Origin: a virus
Virus genome (UHGV): UHGV-0330108
DNA length: 42,810 bases
Reading direction: 5' to 3' (one strand)
In this document: piece after piece, positions 6,555-38,557 of the stretch
Layout of the letters: each line of letters opens with the position of its first letter
How positions within the stretch are numbered: position 1 is the first letter of the stretch
Notes under the pieces: model-generated
Database searches by the model: none
Seen by the model: only the letters and a program-made list of their open reading frames with translations
Told to the model about the DNA's origin: nothing
Translations under genes and position numbers: made by a program

Positions 6555-6585
6555 AAGGCCCCTTACGGGGCCTTAGTTTTATTTG
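6555..6585. terminator. bidirectional rho-independent terminator
   Basis: AAGGCCCC-TTAC-GGGGCCTT flanked by an A-run upstream and AGTTTTATTT downstream, at a convergent gene junction. Confidence 0.55.
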
Positions 6586-6797
6586 AAGAATATCGCGAAT
6601 TTCTTGTAACCCGCTGGCTCGTTGCGCAGACCGTGTTCGTTAGCAAAACGTTGTATATTGTTAAAGTCATTTTCACCCATTCCGTCCGTATCGAACGTAA
6701 AGAAATTACGTTTGTTCCCGATAAGCACACGGCTTGTGATATCAATGCCGTAAAGTTCTTTGATGGCACGTACAACGTTTGCAGTAGCTTTGTTCAT
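6579..6797 (-). CDS. hypothetical protein (72 aa), isolated minus-strand gene
   Basis: ORF track frame 6579-6896; internal ATG at 6797 preceded by TAAGGAATTTGGAA; a TATAAT-containing 23-mer lies ~33 nt upstream. Confidence 0.5.
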   Translation of the reverse strand: MNKATANVVRAIKELYGIDITSRVLIGNKRNFFTFDTDGMGENDFNNIQRFANEHGLRNEPAGYKKFAIFFK

Positions 6798-6829: not shown

Positions 6830-6852
6830 TGAATAGTACCCTATTATATTGG
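6830..6852 (-). promoter_or_regulatory. promoter/operator cassette TGAATAGTACCCTATTATATTGG (minus-strand TATAAT plus palindrome GAATAG-N4-CTATTA)
   Basis: Perfect TATAAT on the minus strand overlapping a 16-bp palindrome; the identical 23-mer recurs at 16043-16065. Confidence 0.45.
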
Positions 6853-6927: not shown

Positions 6928-6956
6928 TTGACTTTTCACTAAAAATGTGCTAAGCT
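6928..6956 (+). promoter_or_regulatory. putative sigma70-like promoter (TTGACT-N17-TAAGCT, TG-extended) next to palindrome AACTATTCGAATAGTT
   Basis: -35 is a good match, -10 is weak; palindromic half-sites overlap the -35. Confidence 0.3.
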
Positions 6957-7180
6957 CCACCTGAGCTTGTGAAGTATGAACAAGCGACCGCGGCGCGGGC
7001 AGGTAACGGAGCGGGACGTAAGTCCTGAGTGTAGTTACGCTGACGCGTTCGGAAGGGCCATACTCTATTGCTTGTGTAAAAAGTAACTGGTTTACTGAGA
7101 TTACGCCGTTTCTATGTTTAAATGATAAGGACTAGCGCCCCGCTTTATGGCGGGGCTTTACTTATCGAGAAAGGAGAAAC

Positions 7181-16042: not shown

Positions 16043-16065
16043 TGAATAGTACCCTATTATATTGG
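16043..16065 (-). promoter_or_regulatory. promoter/operator cassette TGAATAGTACCCTATTATATTGG, identical to 6830-6852
   Basis: Exact 23-mer repeat with minus-strand TATAAT and the palindrome, directly upstream of the island's first gene. Confidence 0.45.
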
Positions 16066-26839: not shown

Positions 26840-27030
26840 CCCTTAATGTAGAGTACCAGCTCTTTACGCCCGAACGCCGTAACGTTACCGGTTACGTCTT
26901 CAATAACCAGTTTACCGTTCGACTCGACGTACACCGTATCAACGGCAACAGGCTGTCGAGTCTTAACGTTGAAAATCATGTCGCCAGGTACGATGTCACG
27001 CGCTGGTTTGCGGTCATATTCGTGTTTCAT
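26836..27030 (-). CDS. hypothetical protein (64 aa)
   Basis: ORF track; initiation region TAAGGAATTGAGAAATG is identical to that of 27045-27338. Confidence 0.5.
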   Translation of the reverse strand: MKHEYDRKPARDIVPGDMIFNVKTRQPVAVDTVYVESNGKLVIEDVTGNVTAFGRKELVLYIKG

Positions 27031-27044
27031 TTCTCAATTCCTTA

Positions 27045-27338
27045 TCAGTACATTAATTCGTTTATTTTCTTATCCAAAGATTCTTTTGAGTAAAAGAAAC
27101 CCATGTGTCTCCCCTTAAATACGAGCCTGTACACATTCTCATCATCTTCAGTAGTAGAAAGGAAAACCCTACAACTAGTTCGGAACTCTCTTACTTTGTC
27201 ACCAAACGCCAATTGCTCCCATTTTACTAAAGGAAATTCTTTTAACATATTGGCGTACAAGTCATTCGCAGTAGCCACTAAGCCCGCATCTAATAGTATG
27301 GCTATTCTCTGCGCGTAATCTAAAAGGACCTTATTCAT
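27045..27338 (-). CDS. hypothetical protein (97 aa), AT-rich cassette
   Basis: ORF track; flanked by 18-bp direct repeats CATTTCTCAATTCCTTAT; visibly more AT-rich than neighbours. Confidence 0.5.
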   Translation of the reverse strand: MNKVLLDYAQRIAILLDAGLVATANDLYANMLKEFPLVKWEQLAFGDKVREFRTSCRVFLSTTEDDENVYRLVFKGRHMGFFYSKESLDKKINELMY

Positions 27339-30949: not shown

Positions 30950-30978
30950 ACTATAATAGTTAACTATTCAGGTGTCAA
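30950..30978 (-). promoter_or_regulatory. sigma70-like promoter (minus: TTGACA-N17-TATAGT) with perfect palindrome GAATAGTTAACTATTA in the spacer
   Basis: Consensus -35, near-consensus -10, 17-bp spacer; ~45 nt upstream of the ATG at 30896. Confidence 0.6.
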
Positions 30979-33453: not shown

Positions 33454-33485
33454 TTTGTTTCTCTCCTCTCGTTTGGTATGGGCTA

Positions 33486-33515
33486 ACTATAATAGCGAAC
33501 TATTCATGTTGTCAA
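33486..33515 (-). promoter_or_regulatory. sigma70-like promoter (minus: TTGACA-N18-TATAGT) with palindrome GAATAGTTCGCTATTA
   Basis: Same architecture as 27372-27400 and 30950-30978; divergent from the XRE regulator gene. Confidence 0.55.
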
Positions 33516-33520
33516 TGGGC

Positions 33521-33549
33521 TTTTCTAAAATAATTAATATGGTACTATT
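33521..33549 (+). promoter_or_regulatory. putative promoter of the XRE regulator gene (-10 TACTAT within AATATGGTACTATTCA, weak -35)
   Basis: -10-like hexamer inside an operator-like half-palindrome, ~30 nt upstream of TAAGGAG. Confidence 0.35.
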
Positions 33550-33579
33550 CACATACCAACTGACTAAGGAGTAATTGAC

Positions 33580-33795
33580 ATGCAACCATCTGAACTAGGC
33601 ATCCGTGTAGAACAACGCCGCAAAGAACTTGGCATCTCCCAGCGCCGTCTGGCTGTCATGGCTGGCGTTTCCCAGGGCGCAATTAACCAGCTGGCACTTG
33701 GAGTAACTCAGGACGTCCGCCCGGCAACGCTGTTTAAACTGGCGGAAGTGCTTGAAGTAGACGCCAAGTGGCTGGCGTTCGGTGAAGGGGCTTAA
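33580..33795 (+). CDS. XRE-family HTH transcriptional regulator (Cro/CI-like, 71 aa)
   Basis: HTH segment ISQRRLAVMAGVSQGAINQLALG; TAAGGAG RBS; lone plus-strand gene with its own promoter and terminator. Confidence 0.75.
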   Translation: MQPSELGIRVEQRRKELGISQRRLAVMAGVSQGAINQLALGVTQDVRPATLFKLAEVLEVDAKWLAFGEGA

Positions 33796-33812: not shown

Positions 33813-36083
33813 CTATTCCAAATCCTCCTCCGTCACCACCAGCATTTCATTCGGTTCGTATATTGTCTTCGGAATCTTGTTATCGTTTATACCCCACGGC
33901 AACCGGTATTGCTTAGGGATCGGCCTGTTGTTGTTATCCAGCCCAGAGACTATAACCCCAGCCTCGTGCATCTCTTCCAGTTTCTTTCGAAGGTCGTTAT
34001 TAGCGTTAATCGGTACGCCGTAACTATCTTCTTTCGCCGCTTTGACGATAGCAGACATAGAAAATCCTCGCTTGTCGTCGCCCTGCTCCTGCAATTTACC
34101 CAATGCGTAGATAACCGTAGCCTCTTTGGTATCCAGTTTCTCGAACTGACCTACCTTTTCTTTAACAGCCGCTTTACCTTCTTTAGTTAACCCTTCTTCC
34201 CGCTCTTTCTCCTCGTCAGTCTTAAACGGCTCAAAGCCCCACGGCATCAACACAAGCGCCTTATGCGGCTCAGGCAGGTCGAGGTTTACGATTATGCCGT
34301 ATTCCTCTGTACTACCCAGGAACTCAACCGCGCGGTATTCTTTCGGCGGCGGGGCTTCACGGAACTGTACCGACTCCAGCACCATGCCAACCGTCTTCTG
34401 CTGCGGCCCGTGCTTAAATTTTGAGTGGTATACGTTTATCTGTCGGTCGGTAGCGCGTTCGATTGTCAGTTCCACATCGACACCCGCATACAGAGCGCCG
34501 CTGCCACGGGCTTTCTTTCCGCCTTTCGGTGTGTGGTGAACGACGCCCACCGCGGCTTTAGTCGCGTCACGCACTTCTTTCAGGATGGCGATAACTTTAC
34601 CCATGCCGATTGCCGTTGATGAGCTGTTCTCGTCGAACTTATCAATAGTCAGTGCCAGGGTCTGGTTGAGGGTGTCAAACGCGACCATGCCGATTGGCTC
34701 GTCGCCAGCAGTTTCGCGCATTAACTTAATCAGGCTCTTCAGTTTGCCGACTTCACCCATGTCTATGACATGTATATAATCTTTACCTTCCGCGCCGTAT
34801 TTAGCCGCGAGCGCATCAATACGTGTACGTGTGGCTGCACCACCTTCACCGTCGATATAGAAATGGTGGCAACGCTGGGTGTCCGCCCCTGCGAAGCGAT
34901 AGCCTGCGGCGCTGAGGTACATCATCCCCAGCGTATAGAATGATTTGTACGTGCCTGATTCCCCGACGATATCCCAGATACAATCTGACGGCATGTACCC
35001 TTCTACGACGAAATCAGCCTTTACAGGTTCCGGTAGCTCGTCCTCCTCGGAGTCTTCGTCATCTTCCAGGTCGTCCAGGCTACACGAAACAGATTCACGC
35101 GCGCCCCATCCGATTGCCTCAGCAACTTCACTGAACGGCAGACCAGTCGCATCGCACGCATACTTCCACACCTCTTTCGGTGACATGCCCTCGGTTGCCG
35201 TAATGTCGGTGTCGTGGATCATGGTTACGTTAGGCGCTTCGTACCCTTCGCGCGGGAAGCACAGCAGGAAGTCATCCGGGCGCGGCGTAGGGTCGCTGTA
35301 GTTCTCTGCGTGCTCCGGTGTAGCGGGCATCTTAAGGCCGCGCGGCGTCATGACGCCACCATACTCAAACGCCAGTGCTTCGAACGCGTCCGTAAACGCG
35401 GTGCGCAGTTCTTCCGGTATCTGGTAATCCGATGCGCTGCTCACCTCGTAATCCGGTACGCCTTCCAGTAACTCTTCCGGGTCAATCAGGTCGTTGCGAC
35501 GCGACCAGATAACAGTAGCACCGACCGGCGGCAGATACATCGGCTGCGACAGAGTGAACCCGCTGCGGTCCGCACCCATGCCTTTGAAGAAGTGCTCAAG
35601 CAACCCATGACGAACGCGAATGATGTCACCACCTTCAACCGGGCGGGCCAGCGGCATGACGACACGAAAGCGAGGGGACTCGTCGGTATGCGATGCCGTG
35701 GTGTAGATGCACATCGCCCGGCGGCTGCGCTTAACCAGGCGCACAGCTTCCTGATACTCTTCCGGCGTTGCACTGTCGAAGTCCAGATACGCCAGCGACG
35801 ATTTGCTTACAGACGCATCGCAGCGATAGAAGAAACCTTTACGCGCTTCCTTAAAGTCACCGGTTTCCGGGTCTTTTACGGTGCTGTGTGTGGAGTCACA
35901 CGCGCCGGTGATGTAGCCCGGCGCGGTCTTCGGGTTAATCCCGTCACGAACGGCATCAAGCGGCTGGATTAACTCTTTCAGGTCGTCCAGTGTTGCCGTG
36001 TGTGTGGTTCTGACGTTTATATCCTTTTTCTCTGCCCGCGCGTTGCGACGAGACCACGAGTAGGATAAAATCACATCGGACAT
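33813..36083 (-). CDS. primase-helicase-like replication protein (RecA-fold ATPase with N-terminal primase-like region)
   Basis: Walker A-like VGESGTYKS, HFYIDGEGG and VVHHTPKGGKKARGSGALYAGVDVE; 756 aa. Confidence 0.7.
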   Translation of the reverse strand: MSDVILSYSWSRRNARAEKKDINVRTTHTATLDDLKELIQPLDAVRDGINPKTAPGYITGACDSTHSTVKDPETGDFKEARKGFFYRCDASVSKSSLAYLDFDSATPEEYQEAVRLVKRSRRAMCIYTTASHTDESPRFRVVMPLARPVEGGDIIRVRHGLLEHFFKGMGADRSGFTLSQPMYLPPVGATVIWSRRNDLIDPEELLEGVPDYEVSSASDYQIPEELRTAFTDAFEALAFEYGGVMTPRGLKMPATPEHAENYSDPTPRPDDFLLCFPREGYEAPNVTMIHDTDITATEGMSPKEVWKYACDATGLPFSEVAEAIGWGARESVSCSLDDLEDDEDSEEDELPEPVKADFVVEGYMPSDCIWDIVGESGTYKSFYTLGMMYLSAAGYRFAGADTQRCHHFYIDGEGGAATRTRIDALAAKYGAEGKDYIHVIDMGEVGKLKSLIKLMRETAGDEPIGMVAFDTLNQTLALTIDKFDENSSSTAIGMGKVIAILKEVRDATKAAVGVVHHTPKGGKKARGSGALYAGVDVELTIERATDRQINVYHSKFKHGPQQKTVGMVLESVQFREAPPPKEYRAVEFLGSTEEYGIIVNLDLPEPHKALVLMPWGFEPFKTDEEKEREEGLTKEGKAAVKEKVGQFEKLDTKEATVIYALGKLQEQGDDKRGFSMSAIVKAAKEDSYGVPINANNDLRKKLEEMHEAGVIVSGLDNNNRPIPKQYRLPWGINDNKIPKTIYEPNEMLVVTEEDLE

Positions 36084-36141: not shown

Positions 36142-36375
36142 TTATTCCAGGTCTTCTAAAGTAGCGGTCATTCCGCGAACTTCAGCAACGGCGCTATATT
36201 TCCCGCCAACGTTTTTCACGACACCGGATTTAACCAGTACACGTAACGACGCTTCAATAATGGCTGAACTATAGTACTTAAAATAACTACGGCGCAAGTC
36301 GATAACGCTGCACGACCCTTTTTTACGTGTTAACGAAACGACCGCCGTAAATACGCGTGACTGGAACTCGGTCAT
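36142..36375 (-). CDS. hypothetical protein (77 aa) with C-terminal LEDLE
   Basis: ORF track; coupled to the upstream HTH gene. Confidence 0.45.
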   Translation of the reverse strand: MTEFQSRVFTAVVSLTRKKGSCSVIDLRRSYFKYYSSAIIEASLRVLVKSGVVKNVGGKYSAVAEVRGMTATLEDLE

Positions 36376-36542
36376 TTCACGTTCTCCTTAATCCACGCTT
36401 CCACTTTCTCCGGGTCGAACGTACCCGGCTGACGGCGACCCATAATACGAATACAGCAATCCGGGAACTTCCCACTCTTTAACCAGTTATTCAGCGTACG
36501 GCGGGTAACCCCGATACGCTCCGCTACCTCATTCTGTGTCAT
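36372..36542 (-). CDS. small HTH DNA-binding protein (56 aa from MTQNEV...)
   Basis: ORF track frame 36372-36575 starts at TTG; ATG at 36542 has GAGGGT upstream; HTH-like EVAERIGVTRRTLNNWLKSGKFP. Confidence 0.55.
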   Translation of the reverse strand: MTQNEVAERIGVTRRTLNNWLKSGKFPDCCIRIMGRRQPGTFDPEKVEAWIKENVK

Positions 36543-36574
36543 TCTCAAACCCTCATTATCAGTTAACGAAACCA

Positions 36575-36603
36575 AGTATACATTGCGAATAATGGGAAAT
36601 CAA
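36575..36603 (-). promoter_or_regulatory. putative promoter of the minus-strand replication operon (TTGATT-N17-TATACT)
   Basis: Read on the reverse complement ~35 nt upstream of the ATG at 36542; coordinates approximate. Confidence 0.35.
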
Positions 36604-36983
36604 ACATAATTGCACCTATTGACATTATGAAAATCTTCGTTTAAGGTGCTTCTATATCTTAGTTACTTTGATTCCTGTTCACCTTGTAAAACCGCTTAAA
36701 ACGCAGCTGCGCGCAGCGCAAGCAAAGTGTTAAGCGCAAGTTTACTGAACATGAGAATTATCATAACTTTCCTCCCTAAGTATCTCCGGTTGCCCTGGGC
36801 AAGCTCTATTCCCATCGGCAGCATATCTCTTAAGTATCTGATTTTCTTAATGTGCCGTAGATTCACAACCGTAAAAATGTAACGATTATTGGGCAGGCTT
36901 AAGGCCTGCCCTTTAGTTACCAAGTAATAAGAATAAAGGCACAACCCTACCTGAAGAATCACAACGGCAACGTAACTATTCTC

Positions 36984-37012
36984 TTGCACATCCCAACATA
37001 ATAGGATACTAT
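36984..37012 (+). promoter_or_regulatory. putative promoter (TTGCAC-N17-TACTAT) with palindrome TAATAGGATACTATTC over the -10
   Basis: Same hexamers, spacing and operator placement as 38498-38526; ~35 nt upstream of the 37046 gene; coordinates approximate. Confidence 0.45.
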
Positions 37013-37045
37013 TCACTTATCGAAACAAGACAGAGGAGTGGGGGT

Positions 37046-37231
37046 ATGTTTAAGAAGGGTCAGTTGGTGAAAACGAAAGATTTCGGTTATTACGGTGTTA
37101 TAGAACAAATTTCAAGTAAGGTTAACGGGATGTGCTACATCCGTACACCTAACCAGCGTTTCGGTAAGTGGTGCTTCGGGGACGAGATAAAACTCATCGG
37201 CAACAATTTTAAATTCAAAGGGGCGAAGTGA
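37046..37231 (+). CDS. hypothetical protein (61 aa)
   Basis: ORF track; GAGGAGTGGGGG RBS. Confidence 0.5.
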   Translation: MFKKGQLVKTKDFGYYGVIEQISSKVNGMCYIRTPNQRFGKWCFGDEIKLIGNNFKFKGAK

Positions 37232-37434
37232 TGGAAGAATTATTTGAAGAACTGAAACACCATAGACTGGAGAAAGTGCACTTCCAGGTAAACAGATACG
37301 AGGTTGTTTTATTAGACGGCCCAACTATTTCTTCCGGGACATGTGAGATCTTGTTAAAAGTTTTACGTGCGCTACGAACGGCATCGAATCATGATGCTCG
37401 TGCCGATGACTCTGAGGGAGGTTGCCGTGAATAA
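37228..37434 (+). CDS. hypothetical protein (68 aa)
   Basis: ORF track; start overlaps the upstream stop. Confidence 0.5.
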   Translation: MMEELFEELKHHRLEKVHFQVNRYEVVLLDGPTISSGTCEILLKVLRALRTASNHDARADDSEGGCRE

Positions 37435-38497: not shown

Positions 38498-38526
38498 TTG
38501 CACACTGATATAGAATAGGCTACTAT
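38498..38526 (+). promoter_or_regulatory. putative promoter (TTGCAC-N17-TACTAT) with palindrome GAATAGGCTACTATTC over the -10
   Basis: Same architecture as 36984-37012; ~30 nt upstream of GGGAGGAGAG and the ATG at 38558. Confidence 0.5.
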
Positions 38527-38557
38527 TCATTTACACAAATGGGAGGAGAGACAGAAG

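What the first reader, a model, noticed from the sequence alone, without database searches (positions are those of the whole stretch)
36576..37045. ~470-bp non-coding divergent control region, candidate origin or regulatory hub
No convincing ORF lies between the start of the minus-strand replication operon and the first plus-strand small gene. The region contains a palindrome (GCTGCGCGCAGC), direct repeats of TAAGTATCT about 50 bp apart, a 9-bp-stem hairpin (GGGCAGGC-TTAA-GCCTGCCC) and promoter elements in both directions. Motif coordinates here are approximate.
Basis: inference. Interest (0 to 1): 0.55.

Follow-up and report, generated by a model that had tools for sequence, protein, structure and literature searches.

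The report
Phage early control region encoding structured RNA
The gap between the replication genes and the first rightward genes of this Kagunavirus-like phage is a conserved back-to-back promoter region that very probably also makes a ~260-base folded non-coding RNA absent from Rfam, and nothing found here marks it as a replication origin.

Summary
The window is a Kagunavirus-like (Guernseyvirinae) phage genome. The interval is as conserved as the flanking genes: 77-80% nucleotide identity to Salmonella Jerseyvirus, found in 445 phage records.

It holds three conserved sigma-70-type promoters:
- P_left drives the HTH, winged-helix and primase-helicase operon.
- P_right1 points rightward, back to back with P_left.
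- P_right2 is one of seven copies of a palindrome-bearing promoter motif in the genome.

Between P_right1 and P_right2 lies a structured element at about 36654-36920. It comprises a ~108-nt irregular hairpin, a middle hairpin, a conserved core and a GC-rich terminal hairpin. Base pairing is kept through compensatory changes (98-99% paired; slid controls at most 49%). G.U pairs strongly favour the + strand. The element is modular and mosaic among relatives. A paralogous cassette sits at 6928-7160, directly upstream of the spanin gene.

Origin hallmarks (iterons, DnaA boxes) are absent, and the element type does not co-vary with the primase-helicase. No Rfam family matches.

Best reading: an early control hub encoding a new structured leader RNA or small RNA. 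Its function is inferred, and no transcript has been observed.

The parts
36372..36542 (-). First gene of the leftward operon: a 56-aa HTH_17 (excisionase/AlpA/MerR-like) DNA-binding protein. The real start is probably the ATG at 36542.
   Evidence: Pfam HTH_17 E=2e-7. A GAGGG Shine-Dalgarno lies 7 nt upstream. Annotated as 171 bp in relatives.
36575..36603 (-). P_left promoter: -35 TTGATT (36603-36598), 17-bp spacer, -10 TATACT (36580-36575). It drives the HTH, p77 and primase-helicase genes.
   Evidence: Promoter scan. Hexamers and 17-bp spacing are identical in 32 of 32 relatives while the spacer varies. PVP-SE2 annotates a promoter here.
36619..36647 (+). P_right1 promoter: -35 TTGACA (36619-36624), 17-bp spacer, -10 TAAGGT (36642-36647). 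The transcription start is inferred near 36654.
   Evidence: TTGACA in 31 of 32 sequences, TAAG[GT]T in 32 of 32, 17-bp spacer in 29 of 32, with a divergent spacer sequence. The same architecture heads the paralogous cassette at 6928.
36661..36768 (+). Left domain: a ~108-nt irregular hairpin. Helices P1 to P4 are conserved, with a CCUU internal loop. P5 and P6 are variable.
   Evidence: All 22 variants fold alike on their own. 27 pairs, 98.9% paired against 84.4% in shuffles (0 of 500) and 26-45% when slid. 10 pairs have changes on both sides.
36769..36789 (+). Conserved unpaired CU-rich linker (ACUUUCCUYCCUWAGUAUCU) containing repeat copy 1, TAAGTATCT, at 36777-36785.
   Evidence: Near-invariant across both genera and unpaired in the consensus fold.
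36790..36821 (+). Middle hairpin, rich in G.U pairs.
   Evidence: 11 pairs, 97.9% paired. One-sided changes convert U.G to C-G and A-U to G.U. This helix is lost when the minus strand is folded.
36828..36861 (+). Right-domain core containing repeat copy 2 (36831-36839) and GCCGUAG. The motif AAGUNNCUG...GCCGU (AAGUAUCUG here) is shared by all right-domain types and by cassette B.
   Evidence: Comparison of types 1, 2, 3 and B. The predicted pairing is weak (helices 6 and 7).
36879..36920 (+). Terminal hairpin: core GGGCAGGC/GCCUGCCC at 36891-36911, extended by GUAAC/GUUAC, with the tail UUUAGUU. It is terminator-like, but the U tract is short.
   Evidence: Terminator scan. Compensatory C-G to U-A change. 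Other right-domain types carry a different GC hairpin at the same place, some with no U tract.
36921..36983 (+). Conserved spacer (AGUAAUAAGAAUAAAGGCAC...GAAUCACAACGGCAACGUAACU). Its role is unknown.
   Evidence: Highly conserved across genera. The 3' half is about 95% conserved even in phages whose left domain is not homologous.
36984..37015 (+). P_right2 promoter: -35 TTGCAC (36984-36989), 17-bp spacer, -10 TACTAT (37007-37012). It includes the palindromic motif ATAATAGGATACTATTCA at 36998-37015.
   Evidence: The motif occurs 7 times in the window against 0.01 expected. Five of the seven copies are followed within about 30-45 nt by a start codon with a Shine-Dalgarno sequence; the copies at 30953 and 33489 are not. 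TTGnnn-17-TACTAT is conserved. PMC9825357 lists the consensus as a predicted 'phage promoter'.
37046..37231 (+). First rightward small gene (61 aa, phrog_12538, function unknown).
6928..7160 (+). Paralogous cassette B: promoter TTGACT-17-(TGc)TAAGCT at 6928-6956, a structured region, and the hairpin GCGCCCCGC/GGCGGGGC at 7136-7160 followed by UUUAC. It lies 20 nt upstream of the Rz-like spanin gene (ATG 7181).
   Evidence: 96-100% identical in 180 of 181 matching phage records. It is homologous to the left domain that replaces type A in K1ind2/3-like phages.

Best explanation
The interval is the early transcription control hub of a Guernseyvirinae phage.

Two back-to-back sigma-70 promoters fire in opposite directions. 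P_left expresses two small DNA-binding proteins and the primase-helicase. P_right1 transcribes a structured RNA of about 260 nt with no coding capacity (about 36654-36920, + strand). This RNA has a 5' long irregular hairpin, a CU-rich single-stranded linker, a middle hairpin, a conserved AAGUNNCUG...GCCGU core and a GC-rich terminal hairpin. A third promoter, P_right2, carries a palindromic operator-like motif and then starts the rightward small genes.

Shown here: the conservation, the promoter architecture, the absence of an ORF, base pairing maintained by compensatory change, the + strand bias, the modular mosaicism and the paralogous cassette.

Inferred: the RNA is made early by host RNA polymerase and acts mainly in cis. 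In this reading it is a leader whose terminal hairpin stops or attenuates part of the transcription, and whose folded body controls read-through and/or stability of the long rightward transcript. That would resemble the short leader RNA between the lambda late promoter and its terminator, or the put RNAs of HK022. A trans-acting small RNA role is nearly as likely.
For: - **Identity and conservation.** The window is 92-96% identical to Kagunavirus genomes. The non-coding interval matches 445 phage records at 70-96% identity. It is 77-80% identical to Jerseyvirus at the nucleotide level. Over the same comparison the neighbouring primase-helicase N-terminus is 57% identical and p77 is 67% identical at the protein level.
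- **Promoters.** Hexamers and spacing are invariant while the spacers diverge.
- **Structure.** Every variant folds into the same long hairpin on its own. On curated helix blocks, 98.9% of cells pair against 84.4% in shuffles and 26-45% when slid, and 10 pairs carry double changes. On an unbiased MAFFT alignment, 51 pairs are 97.9% paired against at most 49% when slid, with 7 compensatory pairs.
- **Strand.** There are 116 G.U cells on the + strand against 5 cells that would be G.U on the minus strand. The + strand consensus keeps 51 pairs and the minus strand 41. The single-sequence z-score is -3.8 for + and -2.0 for -. Some variants have UUCG and GNRA loops.
- **Modularity.** Left-domain types A, B and C combine freely with right-domain types 1, 2 and 3.
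- **Paralogue.** A promoter of the same kind (TTGACT-17-TAAGCT) plus a structured region and a GC hairpin lies 20 nt upstream of the spanin gene, with no other promoter in between. This is what favours a leader function.
- **No ORF** is conserved.
Against: - No transcript data were available. The promoter, the start site and the 3' end are all predictions.
- The -10 hexamer TAAGGT matches the consensus at only 3 of 6 positions, although these are the three most critical ones.
- The terminal hairpin has a short U tract (UUUAGUU). Right-domain types 2 and 4 have none, so intrinsic termination is not a conserved property.
- P_right2 makes P_right1 dispensable for expressing the early genes. That fits an independent small RNA as well as it fits a leader.
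- Covariation cannot by itself separate folded RNA from a folded single DNA strand.
- The curated block alignment was fitted to the proposed structure.
- Sequence diversity is limited: about 5 left-domain lineages, so the compensatory events are few.
Confidence: 0.55

Rival explanations
1. Trans-acting early small RNA. The ~260-nt transcript ends at the 36891-36911 hairpin and acts on host or phage mRNAs or proteins. One route would be through the conserved single-stranded CU-rich (anti-Shine-Dalgarno-like) linker and the AAGUAUCUGAUUU segment. Another would be as a decoy against a host defence.
For: - It has its own promoter, separate from the gene promoter P_right2.
- It has a strong 3' hairpin.
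- It has conserved unpaired segments.
- The apical helices and whole domains are swapped among relatives, as seen for specificity determinants.
- It lies in the early region.
Against: - No E. coli genome match at blastn sensitivity. This test is weak for short seed pairing.
- Cassette B abuts the spanin gene with no promoter in between, which suggests a leader.
- Conservation continues past the hairpin to 36983.
- No target was identified; my duplex scan timed out.
Confidence: 0.25
2. Origin of replication. In this reading the inverted repeats form single-strand or cruciform DNA structures, and the TAAGTATCT repeats bind an initiator. The initiator would be the HTH protein, the p77 winged-helix protein, or the C-terminal domain of the primase-helicase. 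Replication would start next to the replication operon.
For: - The interval lies next to the replication genes.
- An AT-rich stretch lies at 36552-36681.
- The cumulative GC-skew minimum is near 37000.
- Two small DNA-binding proteins are encoded next door.
- Strand-specific hairpins also occur in single-strand initiation signals such as those of RSF1010 (from my own knowledge).
Against: - There are no iterons or tandem repeats, and only two copies of a 9-mer.
- There is no DnaA-box enrichment.
- The skew minimum coincides with the coding-strand switch.
- Phages with a 96-99% identical primase-helicase N-terminus and core carry a non-homologous left domain.
- The window and Bas73 share a 96% identical element, but their primase-helicase C-terminal 156 residues are only 54% identical.
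- A paralogous cassette sits in the structural gene region.
- The many G.U pairs and the UUCG and GNRA loops fit RNA better than DNA.
Confidence: 0.1
3. A purely DNA-level promoter and operator region. The conserved sequence would be binding sites for phage regulators, and the apparent RNA structure would have no function of its own.
For: - The promoters are conserved.
- The palindromic motif family is present.
- The sequence motifs TWAGTWAC and TAAGTATCT recur.
- Three small DNA-binding proteins are encoded nearby.
Against: - Compensatory changes on both sides keep the pairing while the sequence changes, including a paired insertion and deletion in helix P3.
- Non-homologous left domains B and C are again strongly structured.
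- About 260 bp of operator lying downstream of a promoter would be unusual.
Confidence: 0.07
4. A protein-coding gene: the 106-aa minus-strand ORF at 36696-37016, annotated as a hypothetical protein in Bas73.
For: An open frame of 106-116 codons is present in the window and 5 close relatives, and Bas73 annotates it.
Against: - The frame is interrupted in 26 of 32 related sequences, including close Kagunaviruses. One jerseyvirus has no open stretch of 35 codons or more in any frame.
- There is no PHROG match.
- It begins with GTG, and it overlaps the P_right2 promoter and the conserved hairpins.
Confidence: 0.02

Closest known systems
Lambda late leader: PR' promoter, 194-nt '6S' RNA and tR' terminator, read through by the Q antiterminator (from my own knowledge)
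   Same: A host-type promoter is followed by a ~200-260-nt non-coding leader. The leader ends in a GC-rich hairpin and stands in front of a long block of lysis and structural genes. Cassette B directly precedes the spanin gene, much as PR'-tR' precedes S-R-Rz. The leaders are mosaic modules among relatives.
   Different: No Q homologue or Q-binding element was identified. The hairpin lacks a proper U tract, and some variants have none. Cassette A is followed by a second promoter before the genes. The leader is far more structured and more conserved than the lambda 6S RNA.
HK022 put RNAs: cis-acting antiterminator RNAs just downstream of the early promoters (from my own knowledge)
   Same: A structured RNA is encoded immediately downstream of early promoters, with stem-loops maintained by pairing. 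It would explain how a phage with no recognised antiterminator protein transcribes long operons.
   Different: put elements are about 70 nt with two stem-loops. This element is about 260 nt with a different architecture. There is no sequence or model match (Rfam scans). Function was not tested.
Iteron-type or P4-type phage and plasmid origins
   Same: Location beside the replication genes, a local AT-rich stretch, and inverted repeats. One exact copy of the P4 type I iteron octamer TGTTCACC lies at 36676-36683.
   Different: That octamer occurs only once here and four times in the whole window. There is no iteron array. There is no co-variation with the replication protein.
Antisense or immunity RNAs of P1/P7 (c4), P4 (CI) and plasmid copy-control RNAs
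   Same: Promoter-proximal structured RNAs next to replication or regulatory genes, with variable apical stem-loops in a conserved scaffold.
   Different: No overlapping antisense transcript or complementary target was found. These phages are virulent. There is no match to the Rfam C4 model or any other.

Membership tests
Sigma-70 promoter (P_left, P_right1, P_right2) | -35 and -10 hexamers near consensus at 16-18 bp spacing | tested here: met
   P_left is TTGATT-17-TATACT. P_right1 is TTGACA-17-TAAGGT; its -10 matches at 3 of 6 positions and keeps T-12, A-11 and T-7. P_right2 is TTGCAC-17-TACTAT.
Sigma-70 promoter (P_left, P_right1, P_right2) | Hexamers and spacing conserved in relatives while the spacer sequence drifts | tested here: met
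   32 of 32 for P_left. For P_right1, 31 of 32 for the -35 hexamer, 32 of 32 for the -10 hexamer and 29 of 32 with a 17-bp spacer.
Sigma-70 promoter (P_left, P_right1, P_right2) | A mapped transcription start | not testable with these tools
   No transcript data are available.
Structured non-coding RNA | Base pairs maintained by compensatory substitutions across homologues | tested here: met
   10 of 27 pairs (curated) and 7 of 51 pairs (MAFFT) have changes on both sides. 98-99% of cells pair, against at most 49% when slid.
Structured non-coding RNA | Absence of conserved coding capacity | tested here: met
   No frame is kept open across relatives, and there is no PHROG hit.
Structured non-coding RNA | Strand specificity (G.U pairs on one strand only) | tested here: met
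   116 G.U cells against 5 A.C cells. The + strand consensus has 51 pairs and the minus strand 41. Caveat: the structure was predicted on the + strand.
Structured non-coding RNA | The RNA is actually transcribed and accumulates | not testable with these tools
   Needs RNA-seq or a Northern blot.
Any Rfam 15 family | Covariance-model score at or above the family's gathering threshold | tested here: not met
   There are 0 matches at gathering thresholds over the whole window. The best sub-threshold hit is PrrF at 25.8 bits against 90 required. Cassette B also has none.
Intrinsic terminator (36891-36911) | GC-rich stem-loop | tested here: met
   8 Watson-Crick pairs plus one U.G pair, 7 of them G-C.
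Intrinsic terminator (36891-36911) | A run of U directly after the stem, conserved in homologues | tested here: inconclusive
   The tail is UUUAGUUACC, with 3 consecutive U. Right-domain type 2 has ACUGCGUU and the SETP13-like type has UUACCUGACG.
Iteron-type replication origin | An array of three or more direct repeats (iterons) at regular spacing | tested here: not met
   There are only two copies of a 9-mer, 54 bp apart, and no tandem repeats in the interval.
Iteron-type replication origin | DnaA boxes, or an AT-rich unwinding element distinct from the promoters | tested here: not met
   One 1-mismatch DnaA-like site is present, against 24 genome-wide. There are no 13-mer-like elements. The AT-rich stretch at 36552-36681 is the promoter pair itself.
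Iteron-type replication origin | Co-variation of origin sequence with the cognate initiator | tested here: not met
   The same primase-helicase (96-99% identical) is found with a non-homologous left domain. The same element is found with a C-terminal domain only 54% identical.
Iteron-type replication origin | Replication initiates here | not testable with these tools
   Needs marker-frequency sequencing or an origin assay.
Lambda-type late leader (PR'-tR' with Q) | A Q-family antiterminator gene adjacent to the promoter | tested here: not met
   The neighbouring genes encode an HTH_17 protein and a generic winged-helix protein. There is no Q-like Pfam or PHROG hit among the six proteins scanned.
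Lambda-type late leader (PR'-tR' with Q) | A promoter, a short non-coding leader and a terminator in front of lysis or structural genes | tested here: inconclusive
   The architecture is present for cassette B and partly for cassette A. The quality of the terminator is doubtful.
HK022 put RNA | About 70 nt with two stem-loops that act in cis on RNA polymerase | not tested
   No model was available to compare against. Size and architecture differ. Activity cannot be tested here.

The most novel reading that the evidence does not exclude
Guernseyvirinae phages carry a previously undescribed family of modular, promoter-proximal structured RNAs. These comprise cassettes A, B and C, with interchangeable right domains that share an AAGUNNCUG...GCCGU core. 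In the most novel reading they act as RNA-based processive antiterminators or read-through switches for the long rightward operons. They would then substitute for the protein antiterminators that these phages appear to lack. Alternatively they could be early anti-defence decoys, whose variable domains are under diversifying selection.
Probability: 0.3. Interest if true: 0.75.

Novelty: new variant of a known kind. Interest (0 to 1): 0.55.

Why it matters
Kagunavirus and Jerseyvirus phages are common. They are used for phage therapy and biocontrol, and they are being adopted as synthetic-biology chassis. Their gene regulation is essentially unstudied, and this interval is usually left blank or mis-annotated as a hypothetical protein.

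A covariation-supported RNA element present in hundreds of genomes would give a concrete handle on how these phages time early and late expression. So would its paralogue in front of the spanin gene and the gene block that follows it, and so would the seven-copy operator-bearing promoter family.

The result also tells genome engineers that this 'empty' gap should not be used as a neutral insertion site. For annotation, it argues for removing the 106-aa ORF and for adding an RNA family to the databases.

Tried and rejected
- **Rfam.** I scanned the interval, cassette B and the whole window. Only sub-threshold chance hits appeared.
- **tRNA and tmRNA.** The ARAGORN scan found none.
- **IMG/VR scan with the 14-mer CACCTATTGACATT**. 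Nearly all hits were chance matches in unrelated contigs, so the scan was wasted.
- **IMG/VR scan with AGTTACTT-N7-10-TTCACYTTGT**. The true elements recovered were the Guernseyvirinae loci already in hand. The rest was unrelated sequence, including one recurrent group with no resemblance to the element beyond the pattern. No A-type element was found outside the subfamily.
- **Small peptide idea.** A 22-aa hydrophobic peptide with a strong Shine-Dalgarno sequence lies on the minus strand (ATG at 36764). I rejected it because the ATG is unique to the window: every other sequence in the alignment has ACG.
- **P4-like iteron.** TGTTCACC at 36676 is a single copy. It occurs four times genome-wide.
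- **Inverted repeat 36622-36635 / 36840-36853**. It is not conserved in jerseyviruses.
- **Long-range pairing UGCCGU (36853) with ACGGCA (36964).** The pairing is possible, but there is no covariation and the partner segment is deleted in some jerseyviruses, so I make no claim.
- **blastn against 5,426 E. coli genomes**. No match.
- **Literature searches**. Nothing was found on an origin, a transcriptome or a non-coding RNA of these phages. The only relevant item was the PHIRE motif in PMC9825357.
- **p77 structure.** It is a generic winged helix with only weak PDB matches (LexA, Fur, IclR, the MotA N-terminal domain). This does not discriminate between a regulator and an origin binder.
Full report
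**What the window is**

The 42.8-kb window is a complete or nearly complete genome of a Kagunavirus-like siphophage of the subfamily Guernseyvirinae. The 1-kb stretch around the finding is 92-96% identical to Escherichia phages Bas73, K1ind1, EP-B-K_E2 and others.

The finding lies between two gene blocks:
- **A leftward operon.** It encodes a 56-aa HTH_17 protein, a 77-aa protein here called p77, and a 756-aa primase-helicase with an AAA_25 core.
- **A rightward run of small genes.** It starts at 37046. In the close relative Bas73 this run leads into the holin and endolysin genes.

**Checking the observation**

- the palindrome at 36706-36717;
- TAAGTATCT at 36777 and 36831;
- the hairpin at 36891-36911, with 8 Watson-Crick pairs plus one U.G pair and the tail TTTAGTT.

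The HTH gene most likely starts at the ATG at 36542, so the non-coding gap is 36543-37045.

Taken singly, the 9-mer repeat is not beyond chance: about 0.4 such repeats are expected in 470 bp. The palindrome is not conserved. What is far beyond chance is the conservation of the whole interval:
- It matches 445 phage records at 70-96% identity, and 299 of them cover at least 80% of it.
- Against Salmonella jerseyviruses it is 77-80% identical at the nucleotide level.
- Over the same comparison the neighbouring primase-helicase N-terminus is only 57% identical and p77 only 67% identical at the protein level.

**It is not coding**

The only sizeable frame is the minus-strand ORF at 36696-37016, which Bas73 annotates as a hypothetical protein.
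- It stays open at 106-116 codons in only 6 of 32 related sequences (the window itself included) and is interrupted in the others, including close Kagunaviruses. One jerseyvirus has no open stretch of 35 codons in any frame.
- It has no PHROG match.

A tempting 22-aa hydrophobic ORF with a strong Shine-Dalgarno sequence (ATG at 36764, minus strand) depends on a base unique to the window. Every other sequence in the alignment has ACG there.

**Three conserved promoters**

- **P_left** (TTGATT-17-TATACT, 36603-36575, minus strand) is identical in 32 of 32 sequences. Its -35 hexamer lies a fixed 15 bp from the -35 hexamer of P_right1.
- **P_right1** (TTGACA-17-TAAGGT, 36619-36647, plus strand) has TTGACA in 31 of 32 sequences, TAAG[GT]T in 32 of 32 and a 17-bp spacer in 29 of 32. 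The spacer sequence differs between genera, which is the classical signature of a real promoter.
- **P_right2** (TTGCAC-17-TACTAT, 36984-37012) includes the palindromic motif ATAATAGGATACTATTCA.
  - The motif occurs seven times in the window against 0.01 expected. Five of the seven copies are followed within about 30-45 nt by a start codon with a Shine-Dalgarno sequence; the copies at 30953 and 33489 are not.
  - A description of the Kagunavirus fBC-Eco01 lists the same consensus as a predicted 'phage promoter' (PMC9825357).

The 'divergent control region' reading is therefore well supported.

**A structured element between P_right1 and P_right2**

About 6 nt downstream of the predicted start site begins a ~108-nt irregular hairpin at 36661-36768.
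- Helices P1 to P4 and a CCUU internal loop are conserved. P5 and P6 vary between at least five lineages.
- All 22 distinct sequences fold into this same architecture when folded alone.
- On helix blocks parsed from 30 sequences (10 distinct), 27 pairs are 98.9% paired. The controls give 84.4% in column shuffles (0 of 500 reach the observed value) and 26-45% when the partners are slid.
- Ten pairs carry changes on both sides. One P4 pair is seen as A-U, G-C and U-A, and a paired insertion and deletion preserves P3 between the genera.
- This block alignment was fitted to the structure. I therefore repeated the count on a plain MAFFT alignment of the full element using the RNAalifold consensus. 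There, 51 pairs are 97.9% paired, at most 49% pair when slid, and 7 pairs are compensatory. One of these is a C-G to U-A change in the terminal hairpin.

**Which strand folds**

The pairing is strand-specific.
- There are 116 G.U cells on the plus strand. Only 5 cells would be G.U on the minus strand.
- Folding the reverse complement loses the middle hairpin and P4: 41 pairs against 51.
- The single-sequence z-score is -3.8 for the plus strand and -2.0 for the minus strand.

Downstream of the long hairpin come, in order:
- a conserved unpaired CU-rich linker carrying TAAGTATCT copy 1;
- a G.U-rich middle hairpin at 36790-36821;
- a core carrying copy 2 and GCCGUAG;
- the GC hairpin at 36891-36911, extended by GUAAC/GUUAC;
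- a conserved spacer running up to P_right2.

**Modularity and a paralogue**

Relatives show that the element is built of exchangeable parts.
- The left domain comes in type A (window, jerseyviruses), type B (K1ind2/3-like phages) and type C (one locus).
- The right domain comes in type 1 (window), type 2 (a GGGGUGGGC-UAAC-GCCCACCC hairpin with no U tract) and type 3 (an (ACTC)n run plus a GGUGCC-UUCG-GGCACC hairpin).
- The combinations A+1, A+2, B+2, B+3 and C+1 all exist.
- All right domains share a motif AAGUNNCUG...GCCGU (AAGUAUCUG in the window).

Searching for the unusual promoter form TTGACA-N17-TAAGNT found one more site in the window, at 6928-6956. There it heads a type-B structured region ending in the hairpin GCGCCCCGC/GGCGGGGC at 7136-7160. 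The hairpin lies 20 nt before the Rz-like spanin gene, with no other promoter between them.
- This cassette B is 96-100% identical in 180 of 181 matching phage records.
- K1ind2/3-like phages have two copies.
- Type-B sequences also show compensatory changes.

**Why not an origin**

- The interval has no iterons or tandem repeats.
- DnaA-like sites are not enriched. The AT-rich stretch is the promoter pair itself.
- The cumulative GC-skew minimum near 37000 coincides with the change of coding strand, so it cannot discriminate.
- Phages whose primase-helicase is 96-99% identical over the N-terminus and core carry a non-homologous left domain.
- Conversely, the window and Bas73 share a 96% identical element, yet their primase-helicase C-terminal 156 residues are only 54% identical. 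That C-terminal region is the most likely DNA-recognition part.
- A second cassette of the same design lies among the structural genes.
- Single-strand DNA initiation signals could in principle show strand-specific pairing. However, three things fit RNA better: the upstream promoter in the correct orientation, the abundance of G.U pairs, and the UUCG and GNRA loops in some variants.

I put the origin reading at about 0.1.

**Mechanism**

Shown here: the conserved promoters, the absence of coding capacity, and the selected plus-strand secondary structure. Also shown: the modularity and the paralogue in front of the spanin gene and the genes that follow it.

Inferred: host RNA polymerase transcribes the element from P_right1 immediately after infection.

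I favour a cis-acting leader. In this reading the terminal hairpin attenuates transcription, and the folded body governs read-through and/or stability of the long rightward transcript. The reason is that cassette B has no other promoter for the genes downstream of it. The closest analogies are the lambda PR'-6S RNA-tR' leader and the HK022 put RNAs (from my own knowledge).

Membership in either family is not established. No Q-like gene was found among the six proteins scanned. The U tract is short, and other right-domain types lack one. The size and architecture differ from put.

A trans-acting early small RNA is nearly as likely. It would have its own promoter separate from P_right2, conserved single-stranded segments and swappable apical stems.

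**Neighbouring proteins**

p77 is predicted with good confidence (pLDDT 87) to be a small winged-helix protein. It has only generic PDB matches. In phages carrying left domain B, p77 is replaced by an unrelated 77-aa protein. That hints at a protein-element partnership, but recombination blocks could explain it equally well.

**Novelty**

No Rfam 15 family matches either cassette. The literature searches found no description of an origin, a transcriptome or a non-coding RNA for these phages. Pattern scans of IMG/VR found the A-type element only in Guernseyvirinae.

The divergent promoter region itself is ordinary. The conserved, modular structured RNA family appears to be undescribed, and its function remains to be shown.

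Noticed in passing
window 6830-6847(-), 16043-16060(-), 30953-30970(+), 33489-33506(+), 33534-33551(+), 36998-37015(+), 38512-38529(+): A seven-copy promoter family (TTGCNC-17-TACTAT) embeds the palindrome AATAG-N4-CTATT. Only 0.01 copies are expected by chance. It looks like a set of co-regulated promoters sharing one operator. Five of the seven copies are followed within about 30-45 nt by a start codon with a Shine-Dalgarno sequence; the copies at 30953 and 33489 are not.
   Followed up: partly
window 6928-7160 (+): A second cassette of promoter, structured RNA and hairpin (type B) lies directly upstream of the Rz-like spanin gene (ATG 7181). It diverges from a small minus-strand gene at 6579-6797. 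It is 96-100% conserved in 180 of 181 matching phage records.
   Followed up: partly
window 33580-33792 (+): A 70-aa ORF has an XRE/Cro-like sequence (MQPSELGIRVEQRRKELGISQRRLAVMAGVSQ...). I judged the family by eye and ran no Pfam scan. It lies on the plus strand, convergent with the end of the primase-helicase gene. Two copies of the promoter/operator motif precede it. Bas73 does not annotate it on this strand. It is a candidate regulator of the seven-promoter family.
   Followed up: partly
window 33813-34280 (-), the C-terminal ~156 aa of the primase-helicase: The C-terminal domain is hypervariable. It is 54% identical between the window and Bas73, while the rest of the protein is 96-98% identical. 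It is a swapped module, possibly the DNA-recognition domain. The adjacent AT-rich interval 33477-33586 is an alternative place to look for the origin.
   Followed up: partly
window 36696-36764 (-): A window-specific A at 36763 (G in every other aligned sequence) creates an ATG. A GGGAGGA Shine-Dalgarno sequence precedes it, giving a 22-aa hydrophobic ORF. The same base breaks one P1 base pair of the RNA hairpin. It is not conserved and is probably incidental.
   Followed up: yes
L028 about 2165-2195, also L035 and L038 (right domain type 3): An (ACTC)n microsatellite lies inside the right domain, just before the UUCG-loop hairpin. Its copy number varies between phages, from 3 to 8 copies.
   Followed up: no
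L003, L017-L023 and L165 downstream of the element; L014, L024, L025 and L161-L163: Jerseyviruses carry a diverged second copy of the right-domain core (AAUGCCGAAAGAUUC...), with a hairpin GCACUUGCC/GGCAAGCGC. SETP13-like phages have a deletion that fuses the left domain directly to this second copy. The unannotated gap reaches 800-1000 bp in several jerseyviruses.
   Followed up: partly
window 37378-37428 (+); repeated in jerseyvirus loci such as L165: A stem ACGGCA...UGCCGU encloses the GGAGG Shine-Dalgarno sequence of the next small early gene. In jerseyviruses a longer version (CACGGCAAAAGATTC...GGAGGTTGCCGT) recurs between early genes. It may be a translational operator or a processing site.
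   Followed up: partly
L015 and L016, between P_left and the HTH gene: An extra small ORF of about 47 aa is inserted between the promoter and the HTH gene in two metagenomic relatives. The RNA element is left intact.
   Followed up: no
window 27006-27121: This is the most AT-rich 60-bp windows of the genome (GC 0.23), inside the leftward gene block. It was not examined further.
   Followed up: no
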